Positions 836 to 46,496 are shown, counted from the stretch's first letter. The stretch is DNA of 64,000 bases from Trypanosoma brucei (GCA_000002445.1 CH464491.1:2304001-2368000); one strand, 5' to 3'. Program-made: numbers and translations. Notes: a model not told the origin generated them from the letters alone.

Positions 836-1699
836 ATGAGTTTAGTAAGCGTCACAAATCGAATGACCTACCGTGCAGCTGTTGTTGATCTGGATGGCAC
901 CCTGTTAAATGAGAATCACCGTATCAGTGCTTACACTCTCGATACCATCCAAAAGTTATTAAAGCGCAATATTCCTGTTGTTATTGCTACGGGCCGCCCA
1001 CATCCCGATGTCTTTCACACAATAAAAAGCTGTGGCCTACAGGGAACCTATGTGATTACTTCCAATGGTGCACGTGTTAGTGACCCGCAGCTTAATGTCA
1101 TTGCCTCTTTTAACCTTAGCGAAGATGTGGTGTCGGAGCTAATTGGGCTCGGATCATCTGGGGAGGACATTCAGGACCCAAAAGAGGTACCGTACACAGT
1201 TAATTTGTTTCAACACGATGAGTGGGTAACAGATGCTGCAAGGGATGAGTTGCTTCTAATGTTTGCTTCTTCCGGTTTCCATTACAGAGTAGTGGATGAC
1301 TTGCAGGCCCACCAAAAGGATGGTGTGCATGAGCTTGTCTTCTTGGCACAACCAAATACTTTGCATTTGCTGGAGGGAGTTGTGAAGAAGCGCTTCGAGG
1401 GCAGGATCTCCGTCATGCGCTCCACATCAATTACACTCGATGTTGTCCACCACAATGCAAATAAAGCTACTGCTATGGCGAAGGTGGCTGAACTTCTGGG
1501 TTTGGAACTGAAGGACATTGTTTCCTTTGGGGACGGCATGAATGATGTCCAAATGCTTGCTGCCGCTGGAAAGGGTTATATCATGGGAAATGCACAACAA
1601 CGTTTAAAAGATGCCCTTCCACATCTGGAGGTTATTGGCACCAATGCGGAAGACAGCGTGGCGAAGAAACTTCGCGAACTGTTCAATATTGAAGACTAG
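836..1699 (+). CDS. HAD-superfamily hydrolase, Cof-like (subfamily IIB) phosphatase
   Basis: 287 aa ORF. HAD motif I 'VVDLDGTLLN' is near the N-terminus and motif IV 'GDGMNDVQML' near the C-terminus, with the Cof-type cap region between them. The codon usage looks coding. Confidence 0.8.
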   Translation: MSLVSVTNRMTYRAAVVDLDGTLLNENHRISAYTLDTIQKLLKRNIPVVIATGRPHPDVFHTIKSCGLQGTYVITSNGARVSDPQLNVIASFNLSEDVVSELIGLGSSGEDIQDPKEVPYTVNLFQHDEWVTDAARDELLLMFASSGFHYRVVDDLQAHQKDGVHELVFLAQPNTLHLLEGVVKKRFEGRISVMRSTSITLDVVHHNANKATAMAKVAELLGLELKDIVSFGDGMNDVQMLAAAGKGYIMGNAQQRLKDALPHLEVIGTNAEDSVAKKLRELFNIED

Positions 1700-2953: not shown

Positions 2954-3663
2954 CTTGGGATGTTGATGATGTGGCGTGACGAAAAGGTGGAGGTAGCCGA
3001 GAAAAACACTGAGAAAGGGAAAATGAAGTGAAATGAAACAAATTAATTAATTATTAATGAGTAAAGTTAATGGAGATAATATGGCAGAGCATTAAGGTCA
3101 GAGAGGGAGGTAGGTAAAATAAAGGGGAGCGTGTATGTATGAATATGTGTGAAGAAGAAGCATACATGTAGGGGGGAACTGTGCTCCATTTCTCTAACAA
3201 AAAGAACTTCGTCTTATACAGGATTTGTTCCAACCTACCGCTGAAGGAATAGTAGTTCATTCCCTCTCCCGGACTGGTGATTTAGCTTTACTGATTTTTG
3301 ACCCAATAAACGACTTGTTTCAGGTGTATGTACGTACATCTTTCTCCACGGGAATATTTGTAAGGGTTACCTTCCCAATGTTAAGTTACTTCTTGTAAAA
3401 CCCTATGCAATTTAAGGCAAAGAAAGTTTATTACGCATGTTTCCCCCTCTTTTGTATGATACTACCATGCCATATGTTGTTTGTAACACTTCCGTTAGCG
3501 ACAAAAGACCCGCTCTTTACTACCAAAATAACAAAATATCGCGGGATTTTAGCGAGCTTTGGGAAGAAAAGGCACTCGTGTATAAACTTTAGCCACTGGG
3601 TAGTGGGCATACTAAATATAGATTCAGTTTCATTACACACACGAAAGAAACGAAAAAGAAAAA

Positions 3664-4563
3664 ATGCATGGTGGCGCAAACTCTGCAGTGGCCTCTGTGC
3701 ATGTAGATCCGACTGCCCAGCTGCAATACAACAGGCAGCGGGGGACCGAAGCTTACGCGGAATGCGAATATTCTGACGGTTCTGCGGATGAGAACAATCG
3801 TTACCCCCAACGGGGGCAGCCGCCACAAACGCATGAAACAGCGGCCGTCTCCATAACGGACAACAGGCAGCAGAGCAACATGACACCACGTGCGCACGCA
3901 GGCGGGACCGGGGGCGGTGGCGGTGGCTCAACCATGCGACGCAATGTTATTAATAGGTTTGATTATGGAATCATATCACCTAGTGATGCACGCAGTCTGT
4001 TTCTAGGTGCATCCCTGCTCAACATCTTTTTCGCTATTCTTGGTACTTCTCTATCGCAACTCGACGAAGTTGGTGGTGCGTGTTTTACTTTTTGGGGTTA
4101 CAAAACGGATTGTGACTCGGTAAGTTACACTATCCGCACTCAACTTCTGCCGTGTGCACCCATTCGCGGGAGACTTCAGACTGGAGCCGCATTTTCTATC
4201 ATATCTATTTGCCTCTTGGCATCAATTATTTATCTTTATATCAGGTCTGCGTTGGCAAAGTACATGTCACAATATAATGCAGAGGGGCAAACTCCGGCAC
4301 GCAGGATGGAATCGCGTAGCGGCATCTTGCCAGCGGAAGACTCGATTGTGGCGAGTAATAAGTGGACTATTGTAGCGGTGGGTGGTGTTGTGGTATTGTG
4401 TGAGGTCATTAGTTGGGCAATGACTATAAGTGTGTACGTATCCCGTTTCTGTGAGGATGCCAGTTTGGATCGTAACAAAGTTTATGGACCTGGTTTCGCC
4501 CTTTTAATAGTGGGGACGCTGTTGTTTCTAATGGCGCTTGTAGTTTTCGCACTTAGGGCATAG
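3664..4563 (+). CDS. amastin-like surface membrane protein
   Basis: 299 aa ORF with a perfect amastin signature C-[IVLYF]-[TS]-[LF]-[WF]-G-x-[KRQ]-x-[DENT]-C, here 'CFTFWGYKTDC'. Four hydrophobic segments are spaced as in amastins. The true start may be an internal Met (MRRNVINRF..., near 3935), because the N-terminal 90 aa are hydrophilic and G-rich. Confidence 0.7.
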   Translation: MHGGANSAVASVHVDPTAQLQYNRQRGTEAYAECEYSDGSADENNRYPQRGQPPQTHETAAVSITDNRQQSNMTPRAHAGGTGGGGGGSTMRRNVINRFDYGIISPSDARSLFLGASLLNIFFAILGTSLSQLDEVGGACFTFWGYKTDCDSVSYTIRTQLLPCAPIRGRLQTGAAFSIISICLLASIIYLYIRSALAKYMSQYNAEGQTPARRMESRSGILPAEDSIVASNKWTIVAVGGVVVLCEVISWAMTISVYVSRFCEDASLDRNKVYGPGFALLIVGTLLFLMALVVFALRA

Positions 4564-5566
4564 AATCTCTCCTTGTGTGCCATTTAGGAGGTATTACGGT
4601 GAAAATTCTGTAGGAAGGTGGAAGGGAGGTGCATGTGTGTGTGTGTATGTGTGTGTATGTGGAGGGGAGAAGATTCGGTCCCACCCACGTTTGCGTATGG
4701 AGCAAGCTGCCAGGTAAACGAGAAAACTAAATAAATGAATTGTACCACCAAAGGGCAAGAAAAGGGGGGGAGGCATGCGGAAGTGGGGAGAAACGAGGTG
4801 GGATAAATAAAACAACAAAGAAAAACTGTACAACGGTGTCTACACTGGTGCCGAGCACTTCCCGAAGGGAAGAAATGGGAGGTTTGTTGTATGCTGGAGG
4901 GGAAGTGGAAGTGATCTCACTTTGATTTTGCAATTATTATACAATTTTACAAGAAAAAATGTTTTTGTTTTTCACCTCTCGGGTGTAGAGAAGTGTTTAA
5001 GAAAGGGAAGCCTCTCAACTGCGCACGCATATATGTTTGCATATAGACGGTATAAATTCATGCATACGACGAGCTCGTTTTATTTTAAATTTTAGTTTTC
5101 TCTCTTCCCTCTTCGGTTTGTTCCACCTTGTATTTTCATCCACATAACCCGCTTTCTGACATTTTTTTTCTCCTCCTTATGTTCTTTTGTATATCGTTTT
5201 GTAGTTTCCAGACTTCAGTGTTACTTTTTCCATTTTATTCCTTCCACCGCCCCCTCCCACAATTTTTTATGCCATTGGGCGTCTCACCCCGCCACCACGT
5301 GTTTTATCGCAATTGTAAATGAGAAGGTAATGCATGGAAGGAGGAAAGAGGGGGGTTATATTTAATATCAGCGTTTGTGTTTGTGCTTACCGCATTTCTT
5401 ATCTTTTAACGTATCTTTACTCTTTTTCTCTGATTATTTTCCATTCCCTTATTATTGCCTTGGATGTTTGGGAGAGGGAATAGGGGGTATATTTCTGCCA
5501 ATGGGGGGAGGGGGTCCTGTCGGGAGGCGGTACCAAACAAACGCCTCTGACGGGCTTTTTTATTTT

Positions 5567-5577
5567 GTGTGTGTGTG

Positions 5578-5609
<32 letters not shown>

Positions 5610-5630
5610 CGTGTGTGTGCGTGTGTGTGG
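5567..5630. repeat. (GT)n microsatellite with GC interruptions, about 64 bp
   Basis: Direct read. Confidence 0.95.
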
Positions 5631-5792
5631 AGACCGTTTCTGTATGACAATAGCCGTTAAGTTCCCCCAACTCACTTTGCTTACCGTTTGTTGTTACCGT
5701 TGTAGTAGTGGCATCTACTTTTCAGATTAAGATTTTGATTCTCTACCTCCTAGTGAGCTTCATCTCGCACACGCGTATAAAATATATTTATA

Positions 5793-5794
<2 letters not shown>

Positions 5795-5824
<30 letters not shown>
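5795..5824. repeat. (TA)15 microsatellite
   Basis: Direct read. Confidence 0.95.
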
Positions 5825-5827
<3 letters not shown>

Positions 5828-6167
5828 TTGCTATATTATTCTTTTTTTTGGTGAGCTCGGCAACCCTCAGGTGTGGCAAAATTATCCAATCTTGCCCTTT
5901 GTGGTGTGTTCTTACAAACTCAAGTACACAAGGTAGTAGTGGCACTAGGGTGCGGATGGGTTGGTTTGGCTGCGATTAGGGGGGAGGATAGCAACTGACG
6001 TTGGGCGCGACTTTTGAAACAACAACTGAGGTAATTTTCCTTTTACAAAACTAACGATAACAACAGTGACAATACGTAAACATACACTTTAGATTTCTGT
6101 TTATTAATAACTAAACATATATCACTCCACGGCGCAAGGTGAGAGTGTATAGCGAACGGGGGAAAGG

Positions 6168-7577
6168 GTGAAGATAAGGCACGACCCCAATCTTGGGAGA
6201 GTGCTCATGGAATCAAAACACCCCGAAGTGAGGGGGAAAACTCGCGCGGAAGCAGTGTTTGAGGAAACTGTGTTGGATGAAAGGGAGGAAAAAGAACATC
6301 CACATCCAAGGGACGAAAACAGCGCAAATGTTGTGGGGGGGCAAACCTATAAGTCGACTAATTTGAGTGATGTTTCCTTAACGTTGGATGTAACGGCACT
6401 CGGAGCGGGGCCGTCAGCGCGAGATGAGGCAACGCCCCCCGAGCCCCACTCGGAGGGTTCAGAGGCGCACTCCTCGGCGGCTGCTCCCGCATCAGAACCT
6501 TATGTGCACTCTATCAGTGAGCAGAAACCGGTGAAAGAGAAGGTATATCTGAATGGCAATGATTCCCTCCTCTCTGTTGATGTTGGGCGAAACAGCATTC
6601 CCCGTTCTTCCTCGCAGCATTCGGAATGCGTCTCCGCAGAAAAGGAAAAAGTTAATGTGGCAGAGGAAACGGAACAGCACGAGCCAGTTAATGGCAGCAG
6701 AGATAATTGTGCGGAGGAGAGGCGAGAGGAAGTAAGGGCGATATATGCCAAACTCCCCCTGTATCGATTTCCATGTGATTCAAACCAGTCACAGGAGTTG
6801 TCCCAAACGTTTGTACCATCACCAGCGGAAGCAACTACCTCCGCAGGATGTTGGGAAATGGGAGCATGTGCTACAACTGCGAGGCCCGCAGTAGCGGCGG
6901 GCAAACAACAGTGTGCGTATGTGAAGGGGCAACAGCTTCGAGCCACCAGTGATAGCGGACTTCCTCACTCTCAAAGCTCGGATGGAACCACCAGTGTCTG
7001 TACTCGCGCCCCTTCCGACCGTGCTACACTTCCTCAATGTCTTCACAATGCCTTAGTAATTTGTTGGAATACGGAGAGCCGTTGGCTTGTTGTAACATTC
7101 TGCACGTTCTTGGCTTTTCTGTTGACTCTTGTCGCTCACCCACTTTCGTTAATGGATGTTGTAGGTGGCGGCTGCTACACTTTTTGGGGCTACAAAAATG
7201 ACTGTGATAAGAGTACATACACTTACCGCACAGGTCTTCTTAAGTGTGTTGGCTTAAGGCGGGTGCTCAGTGCTGGGGTTGTATTCAACATATTAGCTAT
7301 AATTTTGCTCGCGGCGGCGTTGGGGTGCTGCATTTTGTTCTTGAAGAGAGATGTGTTCCACAAGTGGAATCTCGTGGTGTTTGTTTTGTTATGCTTAACG
7401 GCTTTAGTGCAATTAGTTTCATGGATGTTGGTTGTTACCATGTTTTTACTTCGCTTCTGCGAGGACACAAAACAACCAAGAAGAACAGCTTATGGTGTTG
7501 CGTTTGGTATGAACGTCACCTCCTGGATACTCGTCTTCGTTAGTTTAGTTGTCATGAAGGTATTTCCAAAGGGTTGA
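6168..7577 (+). CDS. amastin-like surface membrane protein with a long N-terminal extension
   Basis: 469 aa ORF whose C-terminal 170 aa carry the amastin signature 'CYTFWGYKNDC' and four TM segments. It is a paralog of the 3664-4563 gene. The N-terminal 300 aa are hydrophilic and E/S/A-rich, so the true start is uncertain. Confidence 0.65.
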   Translation: MKIRHDPNLGRVLMESKHPEVRGKTRAEAVFEETVLDEREEKEHPHPRDENSANVVGGQTYKSTNLSDVSLTLDVTALGAGPSARDEATPPEPHSEGSEAHSSAAAPASEPYVHSISEQKPVKEKVYLNGNDSLLSVDVGRNSIPRSSSQHSECVSAEKEKVNVAEETEQHEPVNGSRDNCAEERREEVRAIYAKLPLYRFPCDSNQSQELSQTFVPSPAEATTSAGCWEMGACATTARPAVAAGKQQCAYVKGQQLRATSDSGLPHSQSSDGTTSVCTRAPSDRATLPQCLHNALVICWNTESRWLVVTFCTFLAFLLTLVAHPLSLMDVVGGGCYTFWGYKNDCDKSTYTYRTGLLKCVGLRRVLSAGVVFNILAIILLAAALGCCILFLKRDVFHKWNLVVFVLLCLTALVQLVSWMLVVTMFLLRFCEDTKQPRRTAYGVAFGMNVTSWILVFVSLVVMKVFPKG

Positions 7578-8572: not shown

Positions 8573-9196
8573 ATGAGCGTGGGCAAACCTATCACACGTG
8601 ACTCTTCCAAACAACTCTGGCGGCACATCAAATCAAGTGGGGAAGAGGAGTTGACTTACACGCATAATCCATATGATGACTCCCCAAATCGCCGTAAGGA
8701 ACGGGAAAAATCTCTAAATGTCTGCCGTCACTACGCGGAGGGTCGTTGCAATCGCGGTAGCACTTGCCGTTTCCACCACGAGACGCGGCACAACATCATC
8801 GTAACGCCACACGTCACTCCCAAATTCTCAAGCATTGCCCCCCTCAAGGGATTACCAACATCACCGCTTGGAGCATATTTGAGTTCACCTCCCAACAGAT
8901 CGTGTAATGGTTGCTTGCTTTCGCCTACGCATCACAACAACAGTATGAGTTACAACAGCAGCACGAACAGTTCCATGAAAATATTGAGTGAATCCTCCAG
9001 CACTATTCCTCACCTTCAGCTTCCTGAGAGCTTATCAACTCACTGCCGCTCTTCCACTTATGTTGCGTCAGGTATGAATGGGGAGCAACCGCCCCATGAC
9101 GTTTTGATATTGAGTTCGTCGCTTGGTTCTTTGAATGTTGGCGATCATGTTTCCAGAAATAACGGCGGCTTTTTGCTTACTGCGCAGCAAAGGTAA
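8573..9196 (+). CDS. CCCH-type zinc finger protein (C-x7-C-x5-C-x3-H), probable RNA-binding
   Basis: 207 aa ORF. It has a single 'CRHYAEGRCNRGSTCRFHH' CCCH finger followed by an S/N-rich low-complexity tail. Confidence 0.6.
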   Translation: MSVGKPITRDSSKQLWRHIKSSGEEELTYTHNPYDDSPNRRKEREKSLNVCRHYAEGRCNRGSTCRFHHETRHNIIVTPHVTPKFSSIAPLKGLPTSPLGAYLSSPPNRSCNGCLLSPTHHNNSMSYNSSTNSSMKILSESSSTIPHLQLPESLSTHCRSSTYVASGMNGEQPPHDVLILSSSLGSLNVGDHVSRNNGGFLLTAQQR

Positions 9197-10065
9197 GAGC
9201 AAAGAAAAAAGAAAGAGAGAGAGACACCTCATTTCTGCTTGCCTTTACCTTGCCCGTCCTCTGGCTCTTCTTTTCTACTTTTTATTTCCTCTCACTAATT
9301 CATACTGTTCTTTCTTTTGGTAACTTCTTTTGTTTGTTTTTCTCGTGCCTTTCTTTTTTACTTTTTTTTTTGTGCTTCATCCTACTAAGATTCTTTATAT
9401 ATATATAATTTGGCTCTCCAGCTGGTATGGTAACAACACTTTATGATGGGCCCTCCAAAGGGCAATAAGTTGTTTGTCCACAACGAACGAGTATCTTTCG
9501 CTTGTGTTTGTTTTTTTTTAAATTAAAAAAAAAAATTTCCCGTTTTGTTTTGAGCGAAACGTTTTCGGTTGCTTTGTTGGTTTCCACGTTCCTTCGTTCC
9601 AATACATCTATATATATACTTGTATATATTTGTATATATGATTTTTTTTTTGCGTGCGTTTGAAGAATAACAATAGCGGTACCAGCATTGATATTACTAT
9701 TGTTATTTCGCTTACAAGCATCTTCTCGTAACTGGCGCCGTAGCAAAAAAAAATCTTAAAAAAAAAGAGAGAAAGGAAGGAAGGAAAATAAAACGAAGGG
9801 AAAGGGAAAGGAAACGGTAGATTATATTTCAATATGTTTGCATTTCAAAAATGACAACATGTTTCTGGTTCCCTTTTCACCTTTTACTTTTCGTCATTTA
9901 TAAACCCATCGGTTCGTTTGCTTGTTCGTTTTTTTTATTTTTTTCCTCCCTTGTTGATGCCGTGACAGGCTGCGACAGTAGATATATATAAATTACAAAA
10001 GTTGGCCCCTTTCCTTTTTTGTAAAAAAAATACCTTTCACGGTAAAAAAACAAAAAATAAATTTT

Positions 10066-10150
10066 ATCTATATCTATCTATATCTATCTATATATACATA
10101 CATGTACATATATATTTTATATATTTTATATATTTATATATTTATATATG
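10066..10150. repeat. compound (TATC)n/(TA)n/(TATATTT)n simple-sequence block
   Basis: Direct read. Confidence 0.85.
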
Positions 10151-13100
10151 CTGATTTGTACCATAAAATACCAAAGTGAATTTACAAATGATAAACTGGC
10201 GTTTCTTCTCCCTTCTTATTTATTACTTTACTCTTTATTAAGAGGATATGCTCGTACGTGTCTGTCTCTGTGTGCTTGTGTGTGTTTATTTGTATGGCTG
10301 TGAGAAGTGAGGGGAAAAGGGAAGTTATGATTATGAAAATAATAATTATTATAATTGCAATTTTGGTGTGCATACAGTGAGTGGTTGGTTTATATTTGTT
10401 CATGTTTTTGATAACTTCTCTGGGTATCTCAATGTATTTTTATGTAGTTTGTTCGCCTCGGAAATACGAAAAGTGGAAGGGTTTGGTGAAAGTAAAGTAG
10501 AAAATAAAACTAAGAGGATATGTTTTAATTTTTGAAAAAAAAAAGCAACAGAAAGACAGAGAAATGGTAAATGAGGAAGTGAATCACTAGCGGAAATATA
10601 AAAGGCGAGTAAAAGAAAAACAACACCAACAACAACGACAAATAAGTCACTACAGCGGCGGGAAGCGCACGAGTCCACCCGCTAGACAACCGTTAGCCGG
10701 TTCACACGGCGTCATGTTGTAAAAAGAAGGTAAAAAAAAAACGGAAACGGTGGTAACGTTAAATATATTTAATAATTTTTTTATTTATTATGGTTGTACA
10801 GCTGAGTACGTCGGTTCACACTCGGATTGTTTTTTTTTCTTGTTTGATCTTTTCCACCGCTTGCGTTTATGATATGTTTATTCCTGTCGGATCGGACGGT
10901 ATTTTTAGATGTACTCTAAGATTATTTATGTGCCCTTTTACCCGTGTACTTCATGCCATCATGTCTTCTTTTTTTTTTTTTTTACTTCCCCTTTCAACTC
11001 GGTGTTATTTTTCCTGTTAGCCACACCGCTGGTGAATAAACCGGGACGAGGGGAGCAAGAGTGGTGTAACGGGGTAGTGAAATGAAAGGTTGTGGCAACT
11101 TCTCTTCTTCTTGTTGTTACTTTGTTTTGTTTTGTTTTGTTTTTTTTCCACCCCTCCTTCTTTACTTACGTTCGATGTCATTTTTGTTTGTTTGCCAACA
11201 CTTCACCCAGCTGCAGTGCCCATTTCCCCCCCTTTTTTTTTTGTCACCGTGTTTTGCATATTCTCTTCCTTATGTGGTTCCGCCTTTCATCCTCTTAATT
11301 TCAATAAATGAGAGGAAACAAAACGAATGACCCCTTGATAAACGAGGCATGTAAGGCCGCTGCTCCACGATTTCATGTTCCATTTCTCGCTTTTTGTTGC
11401 TACCAAAAAAATAAAATAAAATAAAAATTAAAATGTATTCAATTCGGATCACATATTTGCGTGTGTATTTATACTTATTTATATTTATTTATATGTATTT
11501 ATATGTATTTAAACATCTGGGGAGCGGAAGGAACGGGATTTTCTCTCTTTCTTTTCTTTTTCCCCCCCCCCCCCCACTCCCTCCGCTTTCCTTTTGTTAT
11601 GTGGAGATTGAGAAGAAAGGAGGCGTTGTGTTGCGCTCGCCTGTTCGCATGTGGAGAATTTCTTTCGGGACATGTATAAAAAACGAGTTACGGAAATATA
11701 ACAACTTCAGCACGTTACCACAAGTGAGGAAATGCGAGAATAAGAGAGAAGGAGAAGGAGGAGGAGAAGGAAGGATATTAATTATTGGAAAGGGGGGAAA
11801 ACATATATTGCTTGAAACACCCCATAAACTGGACAGAATCTGAAGGCACAACACGGCTTTTTTAAAAGTTTAGTTCTAGTTTTAGTTTTAGTTTTTTTGT
11901 GTGTGCTTTGTTCGTTATGTTTCGTGTTTGTGTTATATTTGAAGGGTGTGCCCCATTTCCATCGTGTTACCTTTTTCTTTTTTGGCTTATTTCTCGGCCA
12001 CAACACATCACATGAGATCGCTTCACCTCACTTTCCTCTTCTTCTCATTTCTCTCACTTTTTTTTAAAAAAAAGAAATCTGCGAAGTCTTTCATTACTTT
12101 GTTTCCTTTGCTGTTTTACTGTTGCTGTTTACTGTTACTGTTGTTGTTTTTCCGCACTTGTAACTCAATTCCCGAGTGTGTATGCGCCTTTTCTTGTTTT
12201 ACCCGTCAATTCGGCTTCATTTTTTTCCTTTTGCTATACGGGTTAATTGTGCATTCTTGTGTGGTTATACGCGCGACCAGAATAATGATAAGCGCGGCAT
12301 ATTACAAACAAACAAACAAAATTCTTCAACTCCTTAACACTTTTTTTTTTTGATGTTTCCTTTGCTTTCATCTCATTTAAATATTGCCCGCAATTTGTTT
12401 CCAGCGATAAATAAAAATAGGGAACGTAAAAGGAATGGCGGTCAACTGCCAATCAGGGAATTACAAAAGGCCGCCGTACCGTCGGATATATTCCCCTCTT
12501 TTTGTTTTTTTTCACTCCTTTTGTATATCTGTGGTTTGCGTTAAGTCATACTTTTGTTTTTGTTGTCGTTGTTTTTCGATGTTTCTTTTCTTCCTTTAAA
12601 AAAAAAAAAAATGTTGCTTAAAGCCTTAAAGTGTGTTACGTTTGTAATTAAAGCCTGCGGTCGCCTTTTTTTTTTTTTATGCTTTTGTCATGTTCTTCTA
12701 TATATCCTTTACCCGCTGGGATTCGTTCACACCCATTGTTATTTGTTCGCCTTCCGTTATGGTTTCCCTTCTGTTTTTTTTTCTGCTTTCAACTTCTTCA
12801 GTTTCATCTTTGTTTTGCGTTTTTTTTTTTCTGTGTCTTTAATGCATATTTATTTTTCTTGCGCCGTCGCCTCTTTTTTTCTTTTTCTTTTTTTCGGCTG
12901 GACGTTTTGGAACTCCTTATGTTCTTTCGTGTATATTTGTTGCTATGGGACGTTGGGCCGCTGAAACTTCATAACAGTCGAAGCAGAAAAGAAGAGAAAA
13001 AGGAAAAGAAAAAGGCAAACAAACGAAGATGAAAAAAAAAAAGAAAAGTGGTTGAAATAAAAAGAAAAAAAAGGGAGAACTAAAGGAAGTGCCTGTGACG

Positions 13101-15387: not shown

Positions 15388-16881
15388 ATGAATGAGCAGC
15401 GTTTGGCTGAGGGTCGAGAGAAGCAACTGCAAGAGCTGAAGCGGAAATCATCTCTCTTCACTCAGTTGTTGGGTGGTGAACGAAACGCTGCGCAGCGGAA
15501 ACAGTGGGAGCTGAAGGTTTCCAAAATAGAACAGGAGCTTGAGGCTACGCGTCGACTGGGAACTTATATCCATTTAGACATGGACATGTTTTATGCTGCT
15601 GTTGAAATCAAGAAGCATCCGGAGTACGCCGCCATTCCGCTTGCCATAGGCACAATAACGAGGTTGATAACAACAAATTATGTTGCGCGTGGACGTGGTA
15701 TTCGTCAAGGTATGCCAGGTTTCCTTGCTCTAAAAATCTGCCCGAATTTGCTCATTCTGCCTCCTGATTTCGATGCTTACAATGAGGAATCCAATACTGT
15801 GCGCCGTATTGTTGCTGAATACGACCCTAATTATATCAGCTTTGGTTTGGATGACTTTACTCTCGAAGTAAGTGCCTACATAGAGCGTTTTGAGGGAACC
15901 AAAACAGCCGAAGATGTGGCTTCTGAACTGCGTGTGCGTGTATTTGGTGAAACAAAGTTGACAGCAAGTGCTGGTATTGGACCCACTGCAGCACTTGCCA
16001 AGATTGCCAGTAATATTAATAAGCCGAATGGACAACATGATCTTAATCTTCACACCCGAGGGGATGTGATGACATACGTCAGGGATTTGGGTCTACGTTC
16101 TGTGCCTGGTGTTGGGAAGGTTACGGAAGCTCTGTTGAAGGGACTGGGTATCACCACTCTCTCAGATATTTACAATAGGCGTGTTGAACTTTGTTACATT
16201 TTGCACAATAATTTATTTCGCTTTTTGCTTGGAGCTTCCATTGGCATTATGCAATGGCCCGATGCAGCAACGGCAGCCAATACCGAGAATTGTGAGGGGG
16301 CTACTGGAGAGCAACGGAAGGCAATCAGTAGCGAGCGATCCATCACTACTCCACGAACCAAAGAAGGTATGCAGGAAATGCTTGATACCGTATTCAATGG
16401 TGCCTATGAAGAAATGCGGAAGAGTGAGCTAATGTGTAGACGCATTTCGTTAAGAATTAGGTGGGCCTCCTATCGTTATCAACAATACACAAAAAGTTTG
16501 ATACAATATTCAGATGACTCTGCAACCCTTCGCCGCGCAGTGGATGGTTTACTGTTACCGCATGCTGCAAAGTATTCAGAGATTTCACTGTTGGGGGTAC
16601 GTTTTCTTGACCTTATCTCTGCAAAAGACTTTCATATGAAAAGAAAGGGTGGTAACCAACTGTCTATTTCACAATTTATTCGCCCCAAGAAGCCGGGTGA
16701 GGTAACAGCAACCACCGGTATAAAAAGGGAGAGAACTACTGAACCGAAACAGGTTGTTGGAGTGAATCTATCATCAGATGACGAGGATGAGAATGATAGT
16801 GTTGGCTTGGCATCTAGCTCCACTATACTCGTTTCAACTGACAAAGGTACTGTTGAGAGGGAAGTTACCATAATTGAGTGA
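15388..16881 (+). CDS. DNA polymerase kappa (Y-family/DinB-like), array copy 1. The N-terminal 79 codons (15152-15391) lie in another frame because of a 1-nt loss, so this may be a pseudogene or a sequence error.
   Basis: The 497 aa ORF carries the Y-family catalytic motif 'HLDMDMFYAAVE', the 'SAGIGPTAALAKIAS' thumb motif and an HhH-like 'VPGVGKVTEALLKGLGI'. The upstream 79-aa ORF 'MSLTMCGG...GSPFL' is homologous to the N-terminus of the other copies but is frame-shifted at 15388. Confidence 0.6.
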   Translation: MNEQRLAEGREKQLQELKRKSSLFTQLLGGERNAAQRKQWELKVSKIEQELEATRRLGTYIHLDMDMFYAAVEIKKHPEYAAIPLAIGTITRLITTNYVARGRGIRQGMPGFLALKICPNLLILPPDFDAYNEESNTVRRIVAEYDPNYISFGLDDFTLEVSAYIERFEGTKTAEDVASELRVRVFGETKLTASAGIGPTAALAKIASNINKPNGQHDLNLHTRGDVMTYVRDLGLRSVPGVGKVTEALLKGLGITTLSDIYNRRVELCYILHNNLFRFLLGASIGIMQWPDAATAANTENCEGATGEQRKAISSERSITTPRTKEGMQEMLDTVFNGAYEEMRKSELMCRRISLRIRWASYRYQQYTKSLIQYSDDSATLRRAVDGLLLPHAAKYSEISLLGVRFLDLISAKDFHMKRKGGNQLSISQFIRPKKPGEVTATTGIKRERTTEPKQVVGVNLSSDDEDENDSVGLASSSTILVSTDKGTVEREVTIIE

Positions 16882-31478: not shown

Positions 31479-32762
31479 TTGAGTCTGACTATGTGTGGGG
31501 GAGAAGAGAATGGTGGATTGGATCAGGCACATGTGTCCTACAGTGGCAGTGCGAGTGAGCAAAACATTGCGGAAATGATTGTAGACCCATCAGCTTCCCG
31601 TCAGCCCACAGCATTCCAACTCACACTCGATTGCAATAAGGCAGGAATGGGAAATGTGGATAAGGAACGTGTGGAAGCTATTATACGTAATGTATCTGAG
31701 GGTTCTTCCTTTTTGATGAATGAGCAGCGGAAAGCTGAGGGTCGAGAGAAGCAACTGCAAGAGCTGAAGCGGAAATCATCTCTCTTCACTCAGTTGTTGG
31801 ATGGTGAACGAAACGCTGCGCAGCGGAAACAGTGGGAGCTGAAGGTTTCCAAAATAGAACAGGAGCTTGAGGCTACGCGTCGACTGNGAACTTATATCCA
31901 TTTAGACATGGACATGTTTTATGCTGCTGTTGANATCAAGAAGCATCCGGAGTACGCCGCCATTCCGCTTGCCATAGNNNNNNNNNNNNNNNNNNNNNNN
32001 NNNNNNNNNNNNNNNNNNNNNNNNNNNNNNNNNNNNNNNNNNNNNNNNNNNNNNNNNNNNNNNNNNNNNNNNNNNNNCGAACTTTGTTATATCTTTACCG
32101 AAAAAACATATCGCTTTTTGCTTGGAGCTTCCATTGGCATTATGCAATGGCCCGATGCGTGTAATATACCGGGTGGCTCTGTCGATGATGGGACAGGTGT
32201 GGGAAGGAAGTCAGTTGGTAGTGAACGTACATTCAAAATATTGCAAAGCAAAGAGGAATTACAGGAAATTGTTGATTTTATTTTTAATTCTTCGTATGAT
32301 GAACTAAAGAAACATGAGCTGATGTGTAGACAGGTTTCGTTAAGAATAAGGTGGGCAACCTATCGATCCCGGCAGTATACTATGAATTTAGCCCAACATT
32401 CAGATGACTCTGCAACCCTTCGCCGCGCAGTGGATGGTTTACTGTTACCGCATGCTGCAAAGTACTCAGATATGTCGTTACTGGGGATGCGTCTGTTAGA
32501 CCTTATCTTTGCAAAAGACTTTCATATGAAAAAAAAGGGTGGTAACCAACTGTCTATTTCACAATTTATTCGCCCCAAGAAGCCGGGTGAGGTAACAGCA
32601 ACCACCGGTATAAAAAGGGAGAGGACTACTGAACCGAAACAGGTTGTGGAAATAATAATATCATCAGATGACGAGGATGAGAATGATAGTGTTGGCTTGG
32701 CATCTAGCTCCACTATACTCGTTTCAACTGGCAAAGGTACTGTGAGAGGGAAGTTACCATAA
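31479..32762 (+). CDS. DNA polymerase kappa (Y-family), array copy 7. Incomplete, interrupted by a 100-N gap and ambiguous bases, with a 1-nt deletion near the 3' end.
   Basis: The ORF is read through the N run at 31978-32077 (translated as X). About 420 bp of coding sequence is missing. The C-terminus reads 'GKGTVRGKLP*' instead of 'GKGTVEREVTII*' because of a missing t near 32742. Confidence 0.5.
   Translation: MSLTMCGGEENGGLDQAHVSYSGSASEQNIAEMIVDPSASRQPTAFQLTLDCNKAGMGNVDKERVEAIIRNVSEGSSFLMNEQRKAEGREKQLQELKRKSSLFTQLLDGERNAAQRKQWELKVSKIEQELEATRRLXTYIHLDMDMFYAAVXIKKHPEYAAIPLAIXXXXXXXXXXXXXXXXXXXXXXXXXXXXXXXXXXELCYIFTEKTYRFLLGASIGIMQWPDACNIPGGSVDDGTGVGRKSVGSERTFKILQSKEELQEIVDFIFNSSYDELKKHELMCRQVSLRIRWATYRSRQYTMNLAQHSDDSATLRRAVDGLLLPHAAKYSDMSLLGMRLLDLIFAKDFHMKKKGGNQLSISQFIRPKKPGEVTATTGIKRERTTEPKQVVEIIISSDDEDENDSVGLASSSTILVSTGKGTVRGKLP
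31978..32077. other. assembly gap (100 N) inside pol kappa copy 7. Single ambiguous bases also occur at 31887 and 31934.
   Basis: N run. Confidence 0.95.
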
Positions 32763-44621: not shown

Positions 44622-46496
44622 TTGAATTGTTGTTCGTGCTTTATGACAACTTTTCCCCCTGTGGTGTACTGCACCGCTGATGCTACAGTTTCGCCGTCAC
44701 CCGCCGTTTGTCTTTTGACTGCCGGCTGTAGGCGGCCGTGTTGCAGTTGGCGAATAGCGCTTAAGGTAAGTTTTTCACAAACCCCCATCGCCCAGTGTTT
44801 TTCTTACAACCTGCTATCATTTGCCCTTTGTCTTCGCTTATGTGTTGCGATGCGCTTACGCACGCAAGTAGTGGGAATAGGACAGCTTAGAACATCTTTT
44901 ACTTCACGAATTTGTATGGGTCGTAGGAGCAACTCTGTCTTCTTCCATCTTTGGCTGAGCTTTGCTTCCCTTTGCCTGGGAAACAGCGACAGTTCAGAGG
45001 GGTCACCCCCAGTTTCTAATGGGACATCGCCTGTAGTTTTGAGTGATCAGTCGGTAGCTAATATGGAAGCAAACGACTCTCAATGGAAGCCTATTCGCAT
45101 CGTGGTATCGGCGAAGGACCTTGATGACTCACTGAAGTATTGCGTGGTGGCCGGCGTCCCCCGGCCCGACTTTATGGGCGGGACTTTGCGCTGCAAAACT
45201 GGCGATGTATTGACGAATGAAAAACGACTAATACTTACAGAGCACGCCCTTCCCAGTGCTATCCACTTACATGCCGAGAGACTTCTTGTTGGCATGGAAA
45301 TCGACAACATCGTCGTTCCAGAGTTTGATTCACCTGCGTGTAAAAGTTTCACCGTTCCCATACATCACCGTTCTGTCGGTGTGCCGCAGGCGGATATTAT
45401 TTTGTACGTGGCTTCTGGGCCTGCGCCTCACGATGGTCCCGCTTACGCAACAACATGTGCTTCGCTTCTCTCTGGGCGTCCAATCGCAGGGGCCATAAAT
45501 TTCTCTCCTAGCGCAATCACTGAGTCGTACCTGTACATTCGGACCGTCGCCCACGAAATAGCCCACGTGCTTGGCTTCAATTTCGAAGCCATGAAGCAGC
45601 TCAACATGGTGGGTACAAAAAATATCCGAGGTAAGTCCTCTGTGAAGGTTGTAAAGACACCCAATGTAGTTAAGGTGGCACGTCAATATTACGGTTGCGG
45701 CAAGATCACTGGCATGGAACTGGAAGATAATGGGGATGACAGCGTACGTAACTCGCACTGGAAACGCCGCATTGCAAGAGACGATCTAATGACTGCCATC
45801 ATGGGGGTTAGTCACTACAGTGAGCTAACATTGGCCTTTTTCCTTGATACGGGGTTTTATAGGGTAAATTGGGAGAAAGGGGAACGTATGCGATGGGGCC
45901 ATGGGGCGGGCTGCAGTTTCATAGAGGGAAAATGCATGGAAAACAATGAAACAAACTTCCCAGACATGTTCTGTAACGACTCTGCGGAAACGCTGTCCTG
46001 CACACATGACCGACAAGCACTTGGGCGCTGCACTGTGCATTCATATGCCGTACCCATAGAGGAAAGTGTGCGATACTTCACGATGTCCTGGGTAGGAGGC
46101 AGTGACAATAATCTAATGGACTATTGCCCTGTTGTAGAACCCTATACGGATAGCTACTGCCGAGATGGTCGGCGGGAGCTGTTACCCGGTAGCCGCATAG
46201 GGGAGAGTTCACGTTGCGTTAAGGGTGAAGGACTAGTTGCCTTCACTACTCATGTTGGCGACATATGTGTGGAGATTCATTGTGGAAAGAGGAGGGGAGT
46301 TAGTATACGTTACAGTGGTGATGATAGCTGGCACGTGTGCCCAGAGGGTGGGCATGTGACGCCCGATAAAACCTTTTCAGAAGGCCGCATTGTGTGCCCT
46401 AAGTGGGAAGAAGTTTGCGACGACAATGCCATGACTCTATCATGTCTAGCTGCCGTGTTCGCCATCTTCGTCAGTGCCCTTTCTTTGGTTGTATGA
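44622..46496 (+). CDS. GP63/leishmanolysin-family zinc metalloprotease (major surface protease)
   Basis: 624 aa ORF. It has the zinc-binding 'VAHEIAHVLGF' (HExxH) and a downstream 'NSHWKRR' third-His region with a Met-turn 'TAIMGV'. It is Cys-rich and has a C-terminal hydrophobic tail 'LSCLAAVFAIFVSALSLVV' consistent with a GPI signal. The true start is likely the internal Met 'MRLRTQVV' or 'MGRRSNSVFFHLWLSFASLCLG' (signal peptide). Confidence 0.8.
   Translation: MNCCSCFMTTFPPVVYCTADATVSPSPAVCLLTAGCRRPCCSWRIALKVSFSQTPIAQCFSYNLLSFALCLRLCVAMRLRTQVVGIGQLRTSFTSRICMGRRSNSVFFHLWLSFASLCLGNSDSSEGSPPVSNGTSPVVLSDQSVANMEANDSQWKPIRIVVSAKDLDDSLKYCVVAGVPRPDFMGGTLRCKTGDVLTNEKRLILTEHALPSAIHLHAERLLVGMEIDNIVVPEFDSPACKSFTVPIHHRSVGVPQADIILYVASGPAPHDGPAYATTCASLLSGRPIAGAINFSPSAITESYLYIRTVAHEIAHVLGFNFEAMKQLNMVGTKNIRGKSSVKVVKTPNVVKVARQYYGCGKITGMELEDNGDDSVRNSHWKRRIARDDLMTAIMGVSHYSELTLAFFLDTGFYRVNWEKGERMRWGHGAGCSFIEGKCMENNETNFPDMFCNDSAETLSCTHDRQALGRCTVHSYAVPIEESVRYFTMSWVGGSDNNLMDYCPVVEPYTDSYCRDGRRELLPGSRIGESSRCVKGEGLVAFTTHVGDICVEIHCGKRRGVSIRYSGDDSWHVCPEGGHVTPDKTFSEGRIVCPKWEEVCDDNAMTLSCLAAVFAIFVSALSLVV

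What the first reader, a model, noticed from the sequence alone, without database searches (positions are those of the whole stretch)
3664..7577. Two tandem amastin-like genes with a perfect amastin signature but atypically long hydrophilic N-terminal extensions
Both ORFs contain the diagnostic 11-residue amastin signature (CFTFWGYKTDC, CYTFWGYKNDC) and 4 TM helices. Their ORFs extend 90 and 300 aa upstream of the amastin domain, whereas typical amastins are 180-200 aa. The 469-aa version has an E/S/A-rich acidic N-terminus. Either the real initiation codons are internal, or these are unusual amastins fused to cytosolic or extracellular extensions.
Basis: partly seen in the sequence, partly recalled or inferred. 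Interest (0 to 1): 0.5.

Follow-up and report, generated by a model that had tools for sequence, protein, structure and literature searches.

The report
Known alpha-amastin gene pair of T. brucei
These are the two already annotated alpha-amastin membrane-protein genes of Trypanosoma brucei, and their long water-soluble front ends are a genuine, normal feature of this amastin subfamily rather than an annotation error or a new kind of fusion.

Summary
The window is T. brucei TREU927 chromosome 11. The ORFs are Tb11.01.0110 (3664-4563, 299 aa) and Tb11.01.0100 = Tb927.11.8460 (ATG 6207-7577, 456 aa; the "469 aa" version starts at a GTG). Both match Pfam Amastin (E about 1e-31) and have the signature and four hydrophobic segments. 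Hydrophilic extensions of 108 and 292 aa precede TM1.

The extensions appear to be translated:
- Annotated spliced-leader sites lie upstream of both ORFs (window 3002 and 5925), and ribosome footprints cover both CDSs.
- The 292-codon extension is open with chance probability about 1e-6.
- Codon usage is frame-specific, and brucei versus gambiense differences are biased to synonymous changes.
- Residues 14-52 of ORF1 are conserved in T. congolense (E=1e-9).
- T. vivax and T. theileri orthologues have no internal ATG that could bypass the extension.
- ORF2 cannot be shorter than 239 aa and still keep TM1.

The locus is syntenic with the ama28 alpha-amastin locus of Jackson (2010), who already described alpha-amastins as a tandem pair of distinct, larger isoforms with a unique 5' half.

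Verdict: real but already known and ordinary. Unresolved: tail function, and possible minor internal trans-splicing in ORF2.

The parts
3664..4563 (+). CDS of Tb11.01.0110 (XP_828919.1, 299 aa). This is the upstream, 'short' alpha-amastin isoform, which has a long TM2-TM3 loop.
   Evidence: Exact match to the deposited protein. Pfam Amastin E=4.7e-32. Gene ID and ribosome footprints from the Vasquez 2014 supplement.
3664..3987 (+). Hydrophilic N-terminal extension of ORF1 (108 aa). It is Gly/Ala/Ser/Arg-rich and contains the motif YAECEYSDGSADENNR and a Gly run.
   Evidence: No TM-like segment. Open-frame probability 0.013 and GC 0.56 against 0.38 in the UTR. Frame-1 codon score is +0.125 and the other frames are negative. 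There are 2 synonymous and 0 non-synonymous differences from gambiense. Residues 14-52 are conserved in T. congolense, E=1e-9. pLDDT is about 30 over residues 1-102 in a low-confidence AF2 model.
4081..4113 (+). Amastin signature CFTFWGYKTDC of ORF1, in the loop between TM1 and TM2.
6207..7577 (+). CDS of Tb11.01.0100 = Tb927.11.8460 (XP_828920.1, 'amastin-like protein', 456 aa). This is the downstream, 'long' alpha-amastin isoform.
   Evidence: Exact match to the deposited protein. Pfam Amastin E=6e-31. Gene IDs.
6207..7082 (+). Acidic Ser/Glu/Ala-rich N-terminal extension of ORF2 (292 aa). It probably forms a disordered cytosolic tail.
   Evidence: Net charge -15 and no TM-like segment. Open-frame probability 1.1e-6, with 6-15 stops in the other frames. 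Frame-1 codon score is +0.147. pN/pS is about 0.23 against gambiense, with no indels. The only in-frame ATG before TM1 is at 6858.
7173..7205 (+). Amastin signature CYTFWGYKNDC of ORF2.
3000..3002 (+). AG dinucleotide and annotated mRNA 5' end of Tb11.01.0110 (5'UTR of 661 nt, 8 uORFs).
   Evidence: Vasquez 2014 supplementary table (genome v4.2 UTR annotation) maps chromosome coordinate 2307002 to window 3002. AG is seen at 3000-3001.
3438..3498 (+). Polypyrimidine tract (3438-3455) and first downstream AG (3497-3498). This is a predicted alternative splice-acceptor that would give a 165-nt 5'UTR with no upstream ATG.
   Evidence: Sequence scan. This is inferred only and has not been mapped experimentally.
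5923..5925 (+). AG dinucleotide and annotated mRNA 5' end of Tb11.01.0100 (5'UTR of 281 nt).
   Evidence: Chromosome coordinate 2309925 maps to window 5925. AG is seen at 5923-5924, preceded by pyrimidine tracts.
5956..5979 (+). 24-nt upstream ORF in the 5'UTR of Tb11.01.0100/Tb927.11.8460, occupied by ribosomes.
   Evidence: Listed as a uORF with footprints in two independent ribosome-profiling studies. Sequence.
6562..6617 (+). Two polypyrimidine tracts (6562-6578 and 6598-6613), each followed by an AG (6594, 6616), inside the ORF2 extension. These are possible but unproven internal trans-splicing sites.
   Evidence: Sequence scan. The first ATGs downstream (6626, 6655) are out of frame, and the first in-frame ATG is at 6858.
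836..1699 (+). Upstream flanking gene Tb11.01.0120, a haloacid dehalogenase-like hydrolase. It is a synteny marker of the ama28 locus.
   Evidence: Pfam Hydrolase_3 E=1.8e-55. Jackson 2010 Table 1.
15388..16881 (+). First copy of the downstream DNA polymerase kappa array (Tb11.01.0080), the second synteny marker of the ama28 locus. ZC3H45 (8573-9196) lies in between.
   Evidence: Pfam IMS, IMS_C and IMS_HHH. Jackson 2010 Table 1. Gene names.

Best explanation
The two ORFs are the alpha-amastin gene pair of Trypanosoma brucei, Tb11.01.0110 and Tb11.01.0100/Tb927.11.8460. They sit at the locus syntenic with Leishmania ama28.

Each encodes a four-helix, claudin-like membrane protein. Its first hydrophobic helix has no cleavable signal peptide before it and probably acts as a signal anchor. 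The hydrophilic N-terminal extension (about 108 aa and about 292 aa) is really translated from the annotated first ATG. It most likely forms an intrinsically disordered tail on the cytosolic side.

Shown here: gene identity, synteny, domain, signature, hydrophobic segments, coding character and selection on the extensions, upstream annotated SL sites, translation of the CDSs, and the same long-extension architecture in orthologues.

Inferred: cytosolic location and disorder of the tails. A role of the tails in sorting, phospho-regulation or partner binding through their acidic Ser/Tyr-rich stretches is also inferred. The sequence of the tail evolves fast while its presence is conserved.
For: - Identity: exact matches to XP_828919.1 and XP_828920.1 of T. 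b. brucei TREU927.
- Pfam Amastin above the gathering score for both proteins. Signature plus four TM-like segments in each.
- Synteny: HAD-like hydrolase, then two amastins, then (ZC3H45) the DNA polymerase kappa array. This equals the ama28 flanks LmjF28.1380/LmjF28.1410. The same order, with 330-aa and 511-aa amastins, occurs in T. theileri.
- The annotated 5' ends at window 3002 and 5925 are upstream of both ORFs. Footprints lie on both CDSs: BF 32.7 and 18.1 rpkm, PF 25.3 and 1.75 rpkm.
- Open-frame probability is 1.1e-6 for the ORF2 extension and 0.013 for ORF1. Extension GC is 0.53-0.56 against 0.38-0.42 in non-coding DNA.
- Codon usage is frame-1-specific, like neighbouring genes.
- Brucei versus gambiense: 6 synonymous and 3 non-synonymous changes in the two extensions combined. 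My binomial estimate against neutrality is about 0.007, calculated by hand from the counts. There are no indels, against 22-37 gap columns in the flanking intergenic DNA. Gly-run variants are all in frame.
- ORF1 residues 14-52 align to T. congolense TcIL3000_11_8970 with 54% identity, E=1e-9. That protein was detected by mass spectrometry.
- The extension in T. vivax has no in-frame ATG after codon 1, and the T. theileri short isoform has none after codon 8. The T. theileri long-isoform extension is 346 open codons, P=1.7e-10.
- Homologue survey: classical amastins have 0-15 aa before TM1, alpha short isoforms about 90-205 aa, and alpha long isoforms 190-365 aa.
- The published amastin topology has both termini in the cytosol, and a claudin-like fold has been reported.
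Against: - I could not see any per-nucleotide SL-read or ribosome-footprint data, or any peptide or phosphopeptide mapping to the extensions. The Nilsson, Kolev, Siegel and Benz supplements gave nothing.
- The annotated 661-nt 5'UTR of Tb11.01.0110 carries 8 uORFs. Its RNA level tracks the upstream HAD gene rather than the amastin CDS. The true major SL site is therefore uncertain, although the best predicted one (5' end at 3499) is still upstream of the ATG.
- In procyclic forms, 5'UTR RNA is about 5-fold below CDS RNA for both genes. This would fit additional downstream SL sites.
- ORF2 contains two internal pyrimidine-tract/AG candidates.
- The T. brucei extensions show no significant similarity to extensions of species other than T. 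congolense. Homology of the ORF2 tail therefore rests on position and architecture only.
- The AF2 model is of low confidence (mean pLDDT 47), so disorder is suggested, not demonstrated.
Confidence: 0.82

Rival explanations
1. The annotated start codons are wrong. Translation would start at internal ATGs (ORF1 Met91 at 3934, ORF2 ATG at 6858), the upstream ORF sequence would be 5'UTR, and the proteins would be near ordinary amastin length (209 and 239 aa).
For: Internal in-frame ATGs exist at suitable places. Procyclic 5'UTR RNA is about 5-fold lower than CDS RNA. Internal pyrimidine-tract/AG candidates exist in ORF2. The extension sequences are poorly conserved outside the closest relatives.
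Against: - The annotated SL sites are upstream.
- There is no pyrimidine tract inside ORF1.
- The extension frames are open against odds of 1e-6 and 0.013 and have gene-like, frame-specific codon usage.
- Substitutions are biased to synonymous changes and indels are in frame only.
- ORF1 residues 14-52 are conserved at protein level in T. congolense.
- T. vivax and T. theileri orthologues have no internal ATG to use.
- After the internal ORF2 acceptor candidates, the first two ATGs are out of frame.
- Even the shortest possible ORF2 product keeps a 74-aa extension.
Confidence: 0.06
2. Both forms are made. The full-length proteins are the main products, but alternative trans-splicing or leaky scanning also yields N-terminally truncated amastins. 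For ORF2 this would use the internal acceptors near 6594/6616 and initiate at 6858, possibly in a stage-specific way.
For: Internal pyrimidine tract plus AG pairs lie within the ORF2 extension. The ratio of UTR to CDS RNA and the translational efficiency of Tb11.01.0100 are stage-dependent (BF 0.56 against PF 0.10). Alternative trans-splicing that changes N-termini is documented in T. brucei (titles and abstracts of PMC2916883 and PMC3273800).
Against: There is no direct read evidence. The pyrimidine tracts may simply reflect Ser/Pro/Leu codons. Out-of-frame ATGs at 6626 and 6655 precede the in-frame ATG at 6858. Neither gene was found in the held Nilsson 2010 supplementary files, though these are small or truncated.
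Confidence: 0.1
3. The extension is translated but faces the outside or the lumen (N-out topology) and acts as an exposed surface domain.
For: Amastins are called surface glycoproteins. The ORF2 extension contains four N-x-S/T sequons and the ORF1 extension contains one.
Against: There is no signal peptide or hydrophobic segment before TM1 (Jackson 2010). With four TM helices, an N-out topology would put the conserved Cys-containing signature loop in the cytosol. This contradicts the published topology (termini cytosolic) and the claudin-like model. Translocating a 292-aa acidic tail without a signal peptide is unlikely; this is inference.
Confidence: 0.03

Closest known systems
Alpha-amastins of the ama28 locus (Jackson 2010, Mol Biol Evol 27:33; e.g. 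LmjF28.1390/1400, the L. braziliensis chromosome-28 'amastin-like protein' of 535 aa, and the T. theileri 330/511-aa pair)
   Same: The flanking genes are the same (HAD-like hydrolase and DNA polymerase kappa). Both are tandem pairs of two structurally distinct isoforms, with no signal peptide and a large unique N-terminal half. The amastin domain with signature sits at the C-terminus, and the upstream isoform has a long TM2-TM3 loop.
   Different: The T. brucei tails have lost the motifs conserved in other lineages: K-M-F-D-D-[IV]-S-S and Y-[IL]-F-P-R-[LM]-D in long isoforms, and D-D-D-Y-Y-Y-S-E in short isoforms. I also found no additional TM helices in the extensions, unlike the '3-10 additional transmembrane helices' stated by Jackson.
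Classical beta-, gamma- and delta-amastins (about 170-195 aa; T. cruzi and Leishmania amastigote surface proteins)
   Same: They share the Pfam PF07344 domain, four TM segments, and the Cys-x-[ST]-x-[WF]-G-x-[KRQ]-x-x-Cys signature in the first loop.
   Different: Classical amastins have only 0-15 residues before TM1, which is annotated as a signal peptide. They occur in large arrays, often next to tuzin, and are stage-regulated. The T. brucei genes have 108-aa and 292-aa hydrophilic tails, occur as a single pair, have no tuzin neighbour, and are expressed in both bloodstream and procyclic forms.
Claudin/PMP22-type four-helix membrane proteins
   Same: Four TM helices, a large first extracellular loop with conserved W and two Cys, and cytosolic termini. 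This is as reported from PHYRE modelling by de Paiva 2015.
   Different: Claudins have a very short N-terminus and carry their regulatory tail at the C-terminus. Here the long tail is N-terminal. The fold relationship was not tested here because the AF2 model was too poor.

Membership tests
Amastin family (Pfam PF07344) | Match to the family HMM above the curated gathering score | tested here: met
   111.5 and 107.9 bits against a cut-off of 27.2, covering 156-157 of 157 profile positions.
Amastin family (Pfam PF07344) | Amastin signature in the first hydrophilic loop. From memory of Rochette 2005 it is C-[IVLYF]-[TS]-[LF]-[WF]-G-x-[KRQ]-x-[DENT]-C. | tested here: met
   CFTFWGYKTDC and CYTFWGYKNDC. 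A relaxed form of the pattern is found in 98 of the 103 homologue sequences examined.
Amastin family (Pfam PF07344) | Four transmembrane helices | tested here: met
   Four Kyte-Doolittle segments in each protein. Four long helices appear in the low-confidence AF2 model of ORF1.
Amastin family (Pfam PF07344) | Cell-surface location with the N- and C-termini in the cytosol | not testable with these tools
   Only the published prediction for other amastins is available. Alpha-amastin-GFP expression failed in L. braziliensis.
Alpha-amastin subfamily (ama28 locus, Jackson 2010) | Genomic position between the haloacid dehalogenase-like hydrolase and DNA polymerase kappa | tested here: met
   HAD at 836-1699, amastins at 3664-7577, polymerase kappa from 15388 with ZC3H45 in between. 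Definition from Table 1 of PMC2794310.
Alpha-amastin subfamily (ama28 locus, Jackson 2010) | [quoted passage not shown] | tested here: met
   299 aa with a long TM2-TM3 loop, against 456 aa with a long N-terminal tail. The domains are only about 38% identical. T. theileri has the same 330/511-aa pair.
Alpha-amastin subfamily (ama28 locus, Jackson 2010) | Larger than other amastins because of a unique 5' half with no homologue in other subfamilies | tested here: met
   Extensions of 108 and 292 aa with no Pfam hit other than Amastin. Classical amastins have 0-15 aa before TM1.
Alpha-amastin subfamily (ama28 locus, Jackson 2010) | No recognisable signal peptide | tested here: inconclusive
   The N-termini are hydrophilic and the first hydrophobic segment starts at aa 109 (ORF1) and aa 293 (ORF2). 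No dedicated signal-peptide predictor was available.
Alpha-amastin subfamily (ama28 locus, Jackson 2010) | [quoted passage not shown] | tested here: not met
   Maximum 19-residue hydropathy in the extensions is 0.11 and 0.83, against a threshold of 1.6. The same holds for nearly all alpha-type homologues, including the L. braziliensis protein. I regard this as a doubtful descriptor rather than a defining feature.
Alpha-amastin subfamily (ama28 locus, Jackson 2010) | Phylogenetic placement in the alpha clade | tested here: inconclusive
   No tree was built. The best phmmer hits of ORF2 are long-extension amastins of T. rangeli, T. conorhini, T. grayi, T. theileri, L. braziliensis and Leptomonas. 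Classical short amastins score much lower. Jackson 2010 states that alpha is the only subfamily in T. brucei.

The most novel reading that the evidence does not exclude
The long N-terminal tails may be functional, lineage-specific cytosolic adaptor or regulatory regions of a claudin-like surface protein. For ORF2, alternative internal trans-splicing (acceptor candidates at 6594/6616, initiation at 6858) or uORF-controlled translation might switch between a tailed and a nearly tail-less amastin during the life cycle.
Probability: 0.1. Interest if true: 0.4.

Novelty: already known. Interest (0 to 1): 0.15.

Why it matters
It matters little beyond quality control. The genes, their lengths and the larger size of alpha-amastins are already in the public annotation and in Jackson (2010). 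This check adds a consistent set of sequence-level arguments that the annotated first ATGs are right.

It also adds three smaller points:
- The tails contain no transmembrane helices, contrary to a statement in the literature.
- Tail sequence evolves very fast while tail presence is conserved from T. brucei to Leishmania and Phytomonas.
- No function of the alpha-amastin tails was reported in the literature I read, so they remain a small open question.

Tried and rejected
- Word-indexed homologue searches reached only very close relatives. The full phmmer search was needed.
- Per-gene SL-site or start-codon data were not retrievable. Nothing was found in the held supplements of Nilsson 2010 or Kolev 2010. 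No supplement is held for Siegel 2010. Parsons 2015 and Urbaniak 2013 are not held.
- No phosphosite entries for Tb927.11.8450 or Tb927.11.8460 appeared in the Benz & Urbaniak 2019 files.
- Profile HMMs built from the extensions of other species did not detect the T. brucei extensions; the real scores were no better than shuffles. Pairwise BLASTP of the T. brucei or T. congolense ORF1 tail against the T. vivax tail was not significant. The ORF2 tail against the T. theileri tail gave only noise. I therefore dropped my by-eye impression that 'NLSDVSLTLD' and 'LYRFPCDS' are remnants of the FDD[IV]SS and Y[IL]FPR[LM]D motifs.
- T. congolense DNA could not be fetched, so codon-level selection between brucei and congolense could not be computed. 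No T. congolense long isoform was found.
- Kozak context was not used, because T. brucei lacks a genome-wide consensus.
- The AF2 model of ORF1 from a 6-sequence alignment was too poor (pLDDT 47) to justify a fold search, so the claudin-like fold was not tested.
- My first polypyrimidine-tract scan was too strict, and I replaced it with a window-based scan.


Full report
**1. What is there**

The region holds two ORFs on the + strand. ORF1 is 3664-4563 (299 aa, ATG start). The tool lists ORF2 as 6168-7577 (469 aa), but that reading starts at GTG under the bacterial rule. The first ATG is at 6207, giving 456 aa.

Both translated sequences exist verbatim in public databases. They are XP_828919.1/EAN79807.1 ('hypothetical protein, conserved'; UniRef 'Amastin') and XP_828920.1/EAN79808.1 ('amastin-like protein') of Trypanosoma brucei brucei TREU927, on a 5.26-Mb contig.

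Supplementary tables of Vasquez et al. 2014 (PMC3973304) give the gene IDs Tb11.01.0110 and Tb11.01.0100 with chromosome coordinates. Window position equals chromosome-11 v4 coordinate minus 2,304,000. Tb11.01.0100 is Tb927.11.8460. This is confirmed by the 24-nt uORF at window 5956-5979, which Jensen et al. 2014 list at Tb927_11_v5:2368212-2368235. I believe Tb11.01.0110 is Tb927.11.8450, but that is from memory only.

**2. Check of the observation**

- Pfam PF07344 (Amastin) matches both proteins far above the gathering score, at E=4.7e-32 and 6e-31.
- The signatures CFTFWGYKTDC (ORF1 aa 140-150) and CYTFWGYKNDC (ORF2 aa 323-333) are present.
- Each protein has four Kyte-Doolittle hydrophobic segments.
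- The sequence before the first hydrophobic segment is 108 aa in ORF1 and 292 aa in ORF2. It is hydrophilic throughout, with maximum 19-aa hydropathy of 0.11 and 0.83.
- The ORF2 tail is Ser/Glu/Ala-rich with net charge -15.

**3. Are the extensions translated?**

(a) Transcript ends. The TriTrypDB v4.2 5'UTR annotation used by Vasquez et al. gives 5'UTRs of 661 nt (Tb11.01.0110) and 281 nt (Tb11.01.0100). These place the 5' ends at window 3002 and 5925. Each lies directly after an AG (3000-3001 and 5923-5924), and both are upstream of the long ORFs.

(b) Translation. Both CDSs carry ribosome footprints in bloodstream forms (32.7 and 18.1 rpkm) and procyclic forms (25.3 and 1.75 rpkm). The 5'UTR of Tb11.01.0110 carries almost none.

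(c) Open frames. Given local base composition, the chance that the ORF2 extension is free of stops is 1.1e-6, and for ORF1 it is 0.013. The other five frames contain 2-15 stops. Extension GC is 0.53-0.56, against 0.38-0.42 in UTR and intergenic DNA.

(d) Codon usage. A frame-specific codon model was trained on nine neighbouring genes.
- The extensions score +0.125 and +0.147 bits per codon in frame 1 and negative in frames 2 and 3.
- The amastin domains score +0.16 and +0.07.
- UTR and intergenic DNA are at or below zero in all frames.

(e) Selection. Compared with T. b. gambiense (locus L002), the two extensions show 6 synonymous and 3 non-synonymous differences. This gives pN/pS of about 0.15. 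My binomial estimate against neutrality is about 0.007, calculated by hand from the counts. There are no indels, whereas the flanking intergenic regions have 22 and 37 gap columns. The Gly-run in ORF1 varies as 4, 6 or 8 Gly among Trypanozoon isolates, always in frame.

(f) Cross-species evidence for ORF1.
- Residues 14-52, upstream of the internal Met73 and Met91, align with the tail of the T. congolense orthologue TcIL3000_11_8970. Identity is 54% and E=1e-9, with the core motif YAEC-x-x-SDGSAD-x-NNR.
- That protein was detected by iTRAQ mass spectrometry (PMC3820035).
- In T. vivax, the 99-codon extension has no in-frame ATG other than the first.
- In T. theileri, the 136-codon extension has ATGs only at codons 1 and 8. 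In both species the tail cannot be skipped without losing TM1.

(g) Cross-species evidence for ORF2.
- The only in-frame ATG between 6207 and TM1 is at 6858. The next one (7152) lies after TM1. Any functional product therefore has at least 239 aa and a tail of at least 74 aa.
- At the same position in the T. theileri locus there is a 511-aa amastin. Its 346-codon hydrophilic extension is open with chance probability 1.7e-10, although it has no sequence similarity to the T. brucei tail.

**4. What it is**

The gene order in the window is as follows:
- HAD-like hydrolase (836-1699)
- amastin
- amastin
- ZC3H45 zinc-finger protein (8573-9196)
- tandem DNA polymerase kappa array (from 15388)

Jackson (2010, PMC2794310) defines the ama28 locus by exactly these flanks, LmjF28.1380 (HAD-like protein) and LmjF28.1410 (DNA polymerase kappa). 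He describes alpha-amastin in these terms:
- It is '35% to 64% larger' than other amastins.
- It lacks a signal peptide and appears constitutively expressed.

A full phmmer search with ORF2, followed by a survey of the retrieved sequences, shows three architectural classes:
- Classical amastins: 170-195 aa, with 0-15 aa before TM1.
- Alpha short isoforms: 90-205 aa before TM1 and a long TM2-TM3 loop. ORF1 belongs here, together with T. congolense, T. vivax, T. theileri, T. cruzi and Porcisia proteins.
- Alpha long isoforms: 190-365 aa before TM1. ORF2 belongs here, together with T. rangeli, T. conorhini, T. grayi, T. theileri, L. braziliensis, Leptomonas and Phytomonas proteins.

The long hydrophilic extension is therefore the rule for this subfamily.

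**5. How it most likely works**

Shown: four hydrophobic helices with the Cys/Trp signature in the first loop, and no hydrophobic segment ahead of TM1.

From the literature: amastins are predicted to have both termini in the cytosol (Rochette 2005, as cited in PMC3598723). They also model onto claudin-15 (PMC4671664).

Inferred: TM1 acts as a signal anchor, and the N-terminal extension stays in the cytosol as a disordered tail. Support for disorder comes from its composition, its fast sequence turnover, and a pLDDT of about 30 over residues 1-102 in an admittedly poor AF2 model.

In other lineages the tails carry conserved short acidic Ser/Tyr motifs:
- K-M-F-D-D-[IV]-S-S-x-x-E and Y-[IL]-F-P-R-[LM]-D in long isoforms.
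- D-D-D-x-Y-Y-Y-[ST]-E in short isoforms.

ORF1 has the acidic YAECEYSDGSADENNR stretch. By analogy with acidic-cluster and tyrosine sorting signals, I consider trafficking or phospho-regulation the most likely role. This is speculation.

**6. Remaining doubts**

- I could not access nucleotide-level SL-junction, footprint or peptide data.
- The annotated 661-nt 5'UTR of Tb11.01.0110 has 8 uORFs. Its RNA level is 45.7 rpkm in BF and 4.4 in PF. That follows the upstream HAD gene (38.4 and 6.5) rather than the amastin CDS (28.8 and 20.7). Much of that 'UTR' may therefore be the HAD 3'UTR.
- A strong pyrimidine tract at 3438-3455 with its first AG at 3497 predicts a 165-nt 5'UTR with no upstream ATG. 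This would still make ATG 3664 the first start codon. There is no pyrimidine tract inside ORF1.
- For ORF2, two pyrimidine tract/AG pairs lie inside the extension (AG at 6594 and 6616). If they were used, two out-of-frame ATGs would precede the in-frame ATG at 6858. A minor truncated isoform cannot be excluded.
- The T. brucei tails are not detectably homologous to those of species other than T. congolense.

**7. Comparison, novelty and verdict**

The features pass the tests for amastin family membership and for the alpha subfamily: locus, tandem distinct isoforms and a unique large 5' half. One descriptor in Jackson's Discussion was not reproduced. [quoted passage not shown] I treat this as a discrepancy in the literature, not as a failed membership test.

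Everything essential in the finding is already annotated and published. The finding is real, correctly observed, and ordinary. Interest is 0.15 and novelty is 'already known'.

Noticed in passing
window 15388-42636: There is a tandem array of about ten DNA polymerase kappa (IMS-family) genes with a period of about 2.5 kb. ORFs of about 575 aa start at 18980, 21498, 24019, 26540, 28958 and onward, and one copy is shortened (31479-32762). Further downstream lie a GP63/leishmanolysin gene (44622-46496) and an AAA ATPase (47679-49781).
   Followed up: partly
window 5925-7577 (Tb11.01.0100), uORF 5956-5979: According to the Vasquez 2014 tables, translational efficiency of the long amastin falls from 0.56 in bloodstream forms to 0.10 in procyclics. 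In procyclics, footprint density on the 5'UTR (6.4 rpkm) exceeds that on the CDS (1.75 rpkm). This suggests uORF-linked, stage-specific translational repression. The same uORF is listed with footprints by Jensen 2014.
   Followed up: partly
window 3002-3663: RNA abundance in the annotated 661-nt, 8-uORF 5'UTR of Tb11.01.0110 follows the upstream HAD gene, not the amastin CDS. The region is probably mostly the HAD 3'UTR. A better splice-acceptor candidate (pyrimidine tract 3438-3455, AG at 3497) would give a uATG-free 165-nt UTR.
   Followed up: partly
ORF1 and ORF2 extensions; homologues P0010-P0073: [quoted passage not shown] Kyte-Doolittle analysis finds none in the T. brucei tails. It finds essentially none in about 45 alpha-type homologues, including L. 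braziliensis. The exceptions look like over-extended gene models or insertions.
   Followed up: partly
L003 8001-12327 (T. vivax): The syntenic T. vivax locus has only the short alpha-amastin isoform (283 aa). The position of the second gene is occupied by a non-LTR retrotransposon (endonuclease plus reverse-transcriptase ORFs at 10048-12327). No second amastin lies within 8 kb.
   Followed up: partly
P0014 cluster (T. cruzi, 21 members, 280-289 aa): Several T. cruzi assemblies encode multiple copies of an amastin with a 90-100-aa hydrophilic extension and a long TM2-TM3 loop, that is, alpha short-isoform architecture. Jackson 2010 reported alpha-amastin as absent from T. cruzi CL Brener.
   Followed up: no
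N-terminal tails of P0010-P0013, P0021-P0030, P0034, P0041-P0045, P0068, P0073 (long isoforms); P0029, P0033, P0035, P0036, P0038 (short isoforms): Short linear motifs are conserved in alpha-amastin tails of other trypanosomatids but not recognisable in T. brucei. Long isoforms have K-(K/M)-F-D-D-[IV]-S-S...E-[ED] near the N-terminus, and Y-[IL]-F-P-R-[LM]-D plus P-P-N-x-[VI]-E just before TM1. Short isoforms have D-D-D-x-Y-Y-Y-[ST]-E.
   Followed up: partly
T. congolense TcIL3000.11.8970 (orthologue of window 3664-4563): In iTRAQ proteomics the T. congolense orthologue rises 12.6-fold from procyclic to epimastigote forms, then falls to 0.14 in metacyclics. This does not fit the 'constitutive' expression assumed for alpha-amastin (PMC3820035).
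   Followed up: no
window 3907-3930 (Gly run in ORF1); proteins P0003, P0004: A GGC/GGT triplet run encodes 6 Gly in TREU927 and gambiense, 8 in T. equiperdum and 4 in a Logan-assembled isolate. This is an in-frame length polymorphism.
   Followed up: no
ORF1 aa 131-174 and 254-278; ORF2 aa 312-357 and 408-430: Neither protein has an N-x-S/T sequon in the predicted extracellular loops. All sequons lie in the presumably cytosolic tails or in TM4. The family name 'surface glycoprotein' may therefore not apply to the T. brucei proteins.
   Followed up: no
window 4630-4665, 5566-5630, 5795-5824: The amastin intergenic region contains (TG)n microsatellites and a (TA)n microsatellite.
   Followed up: no
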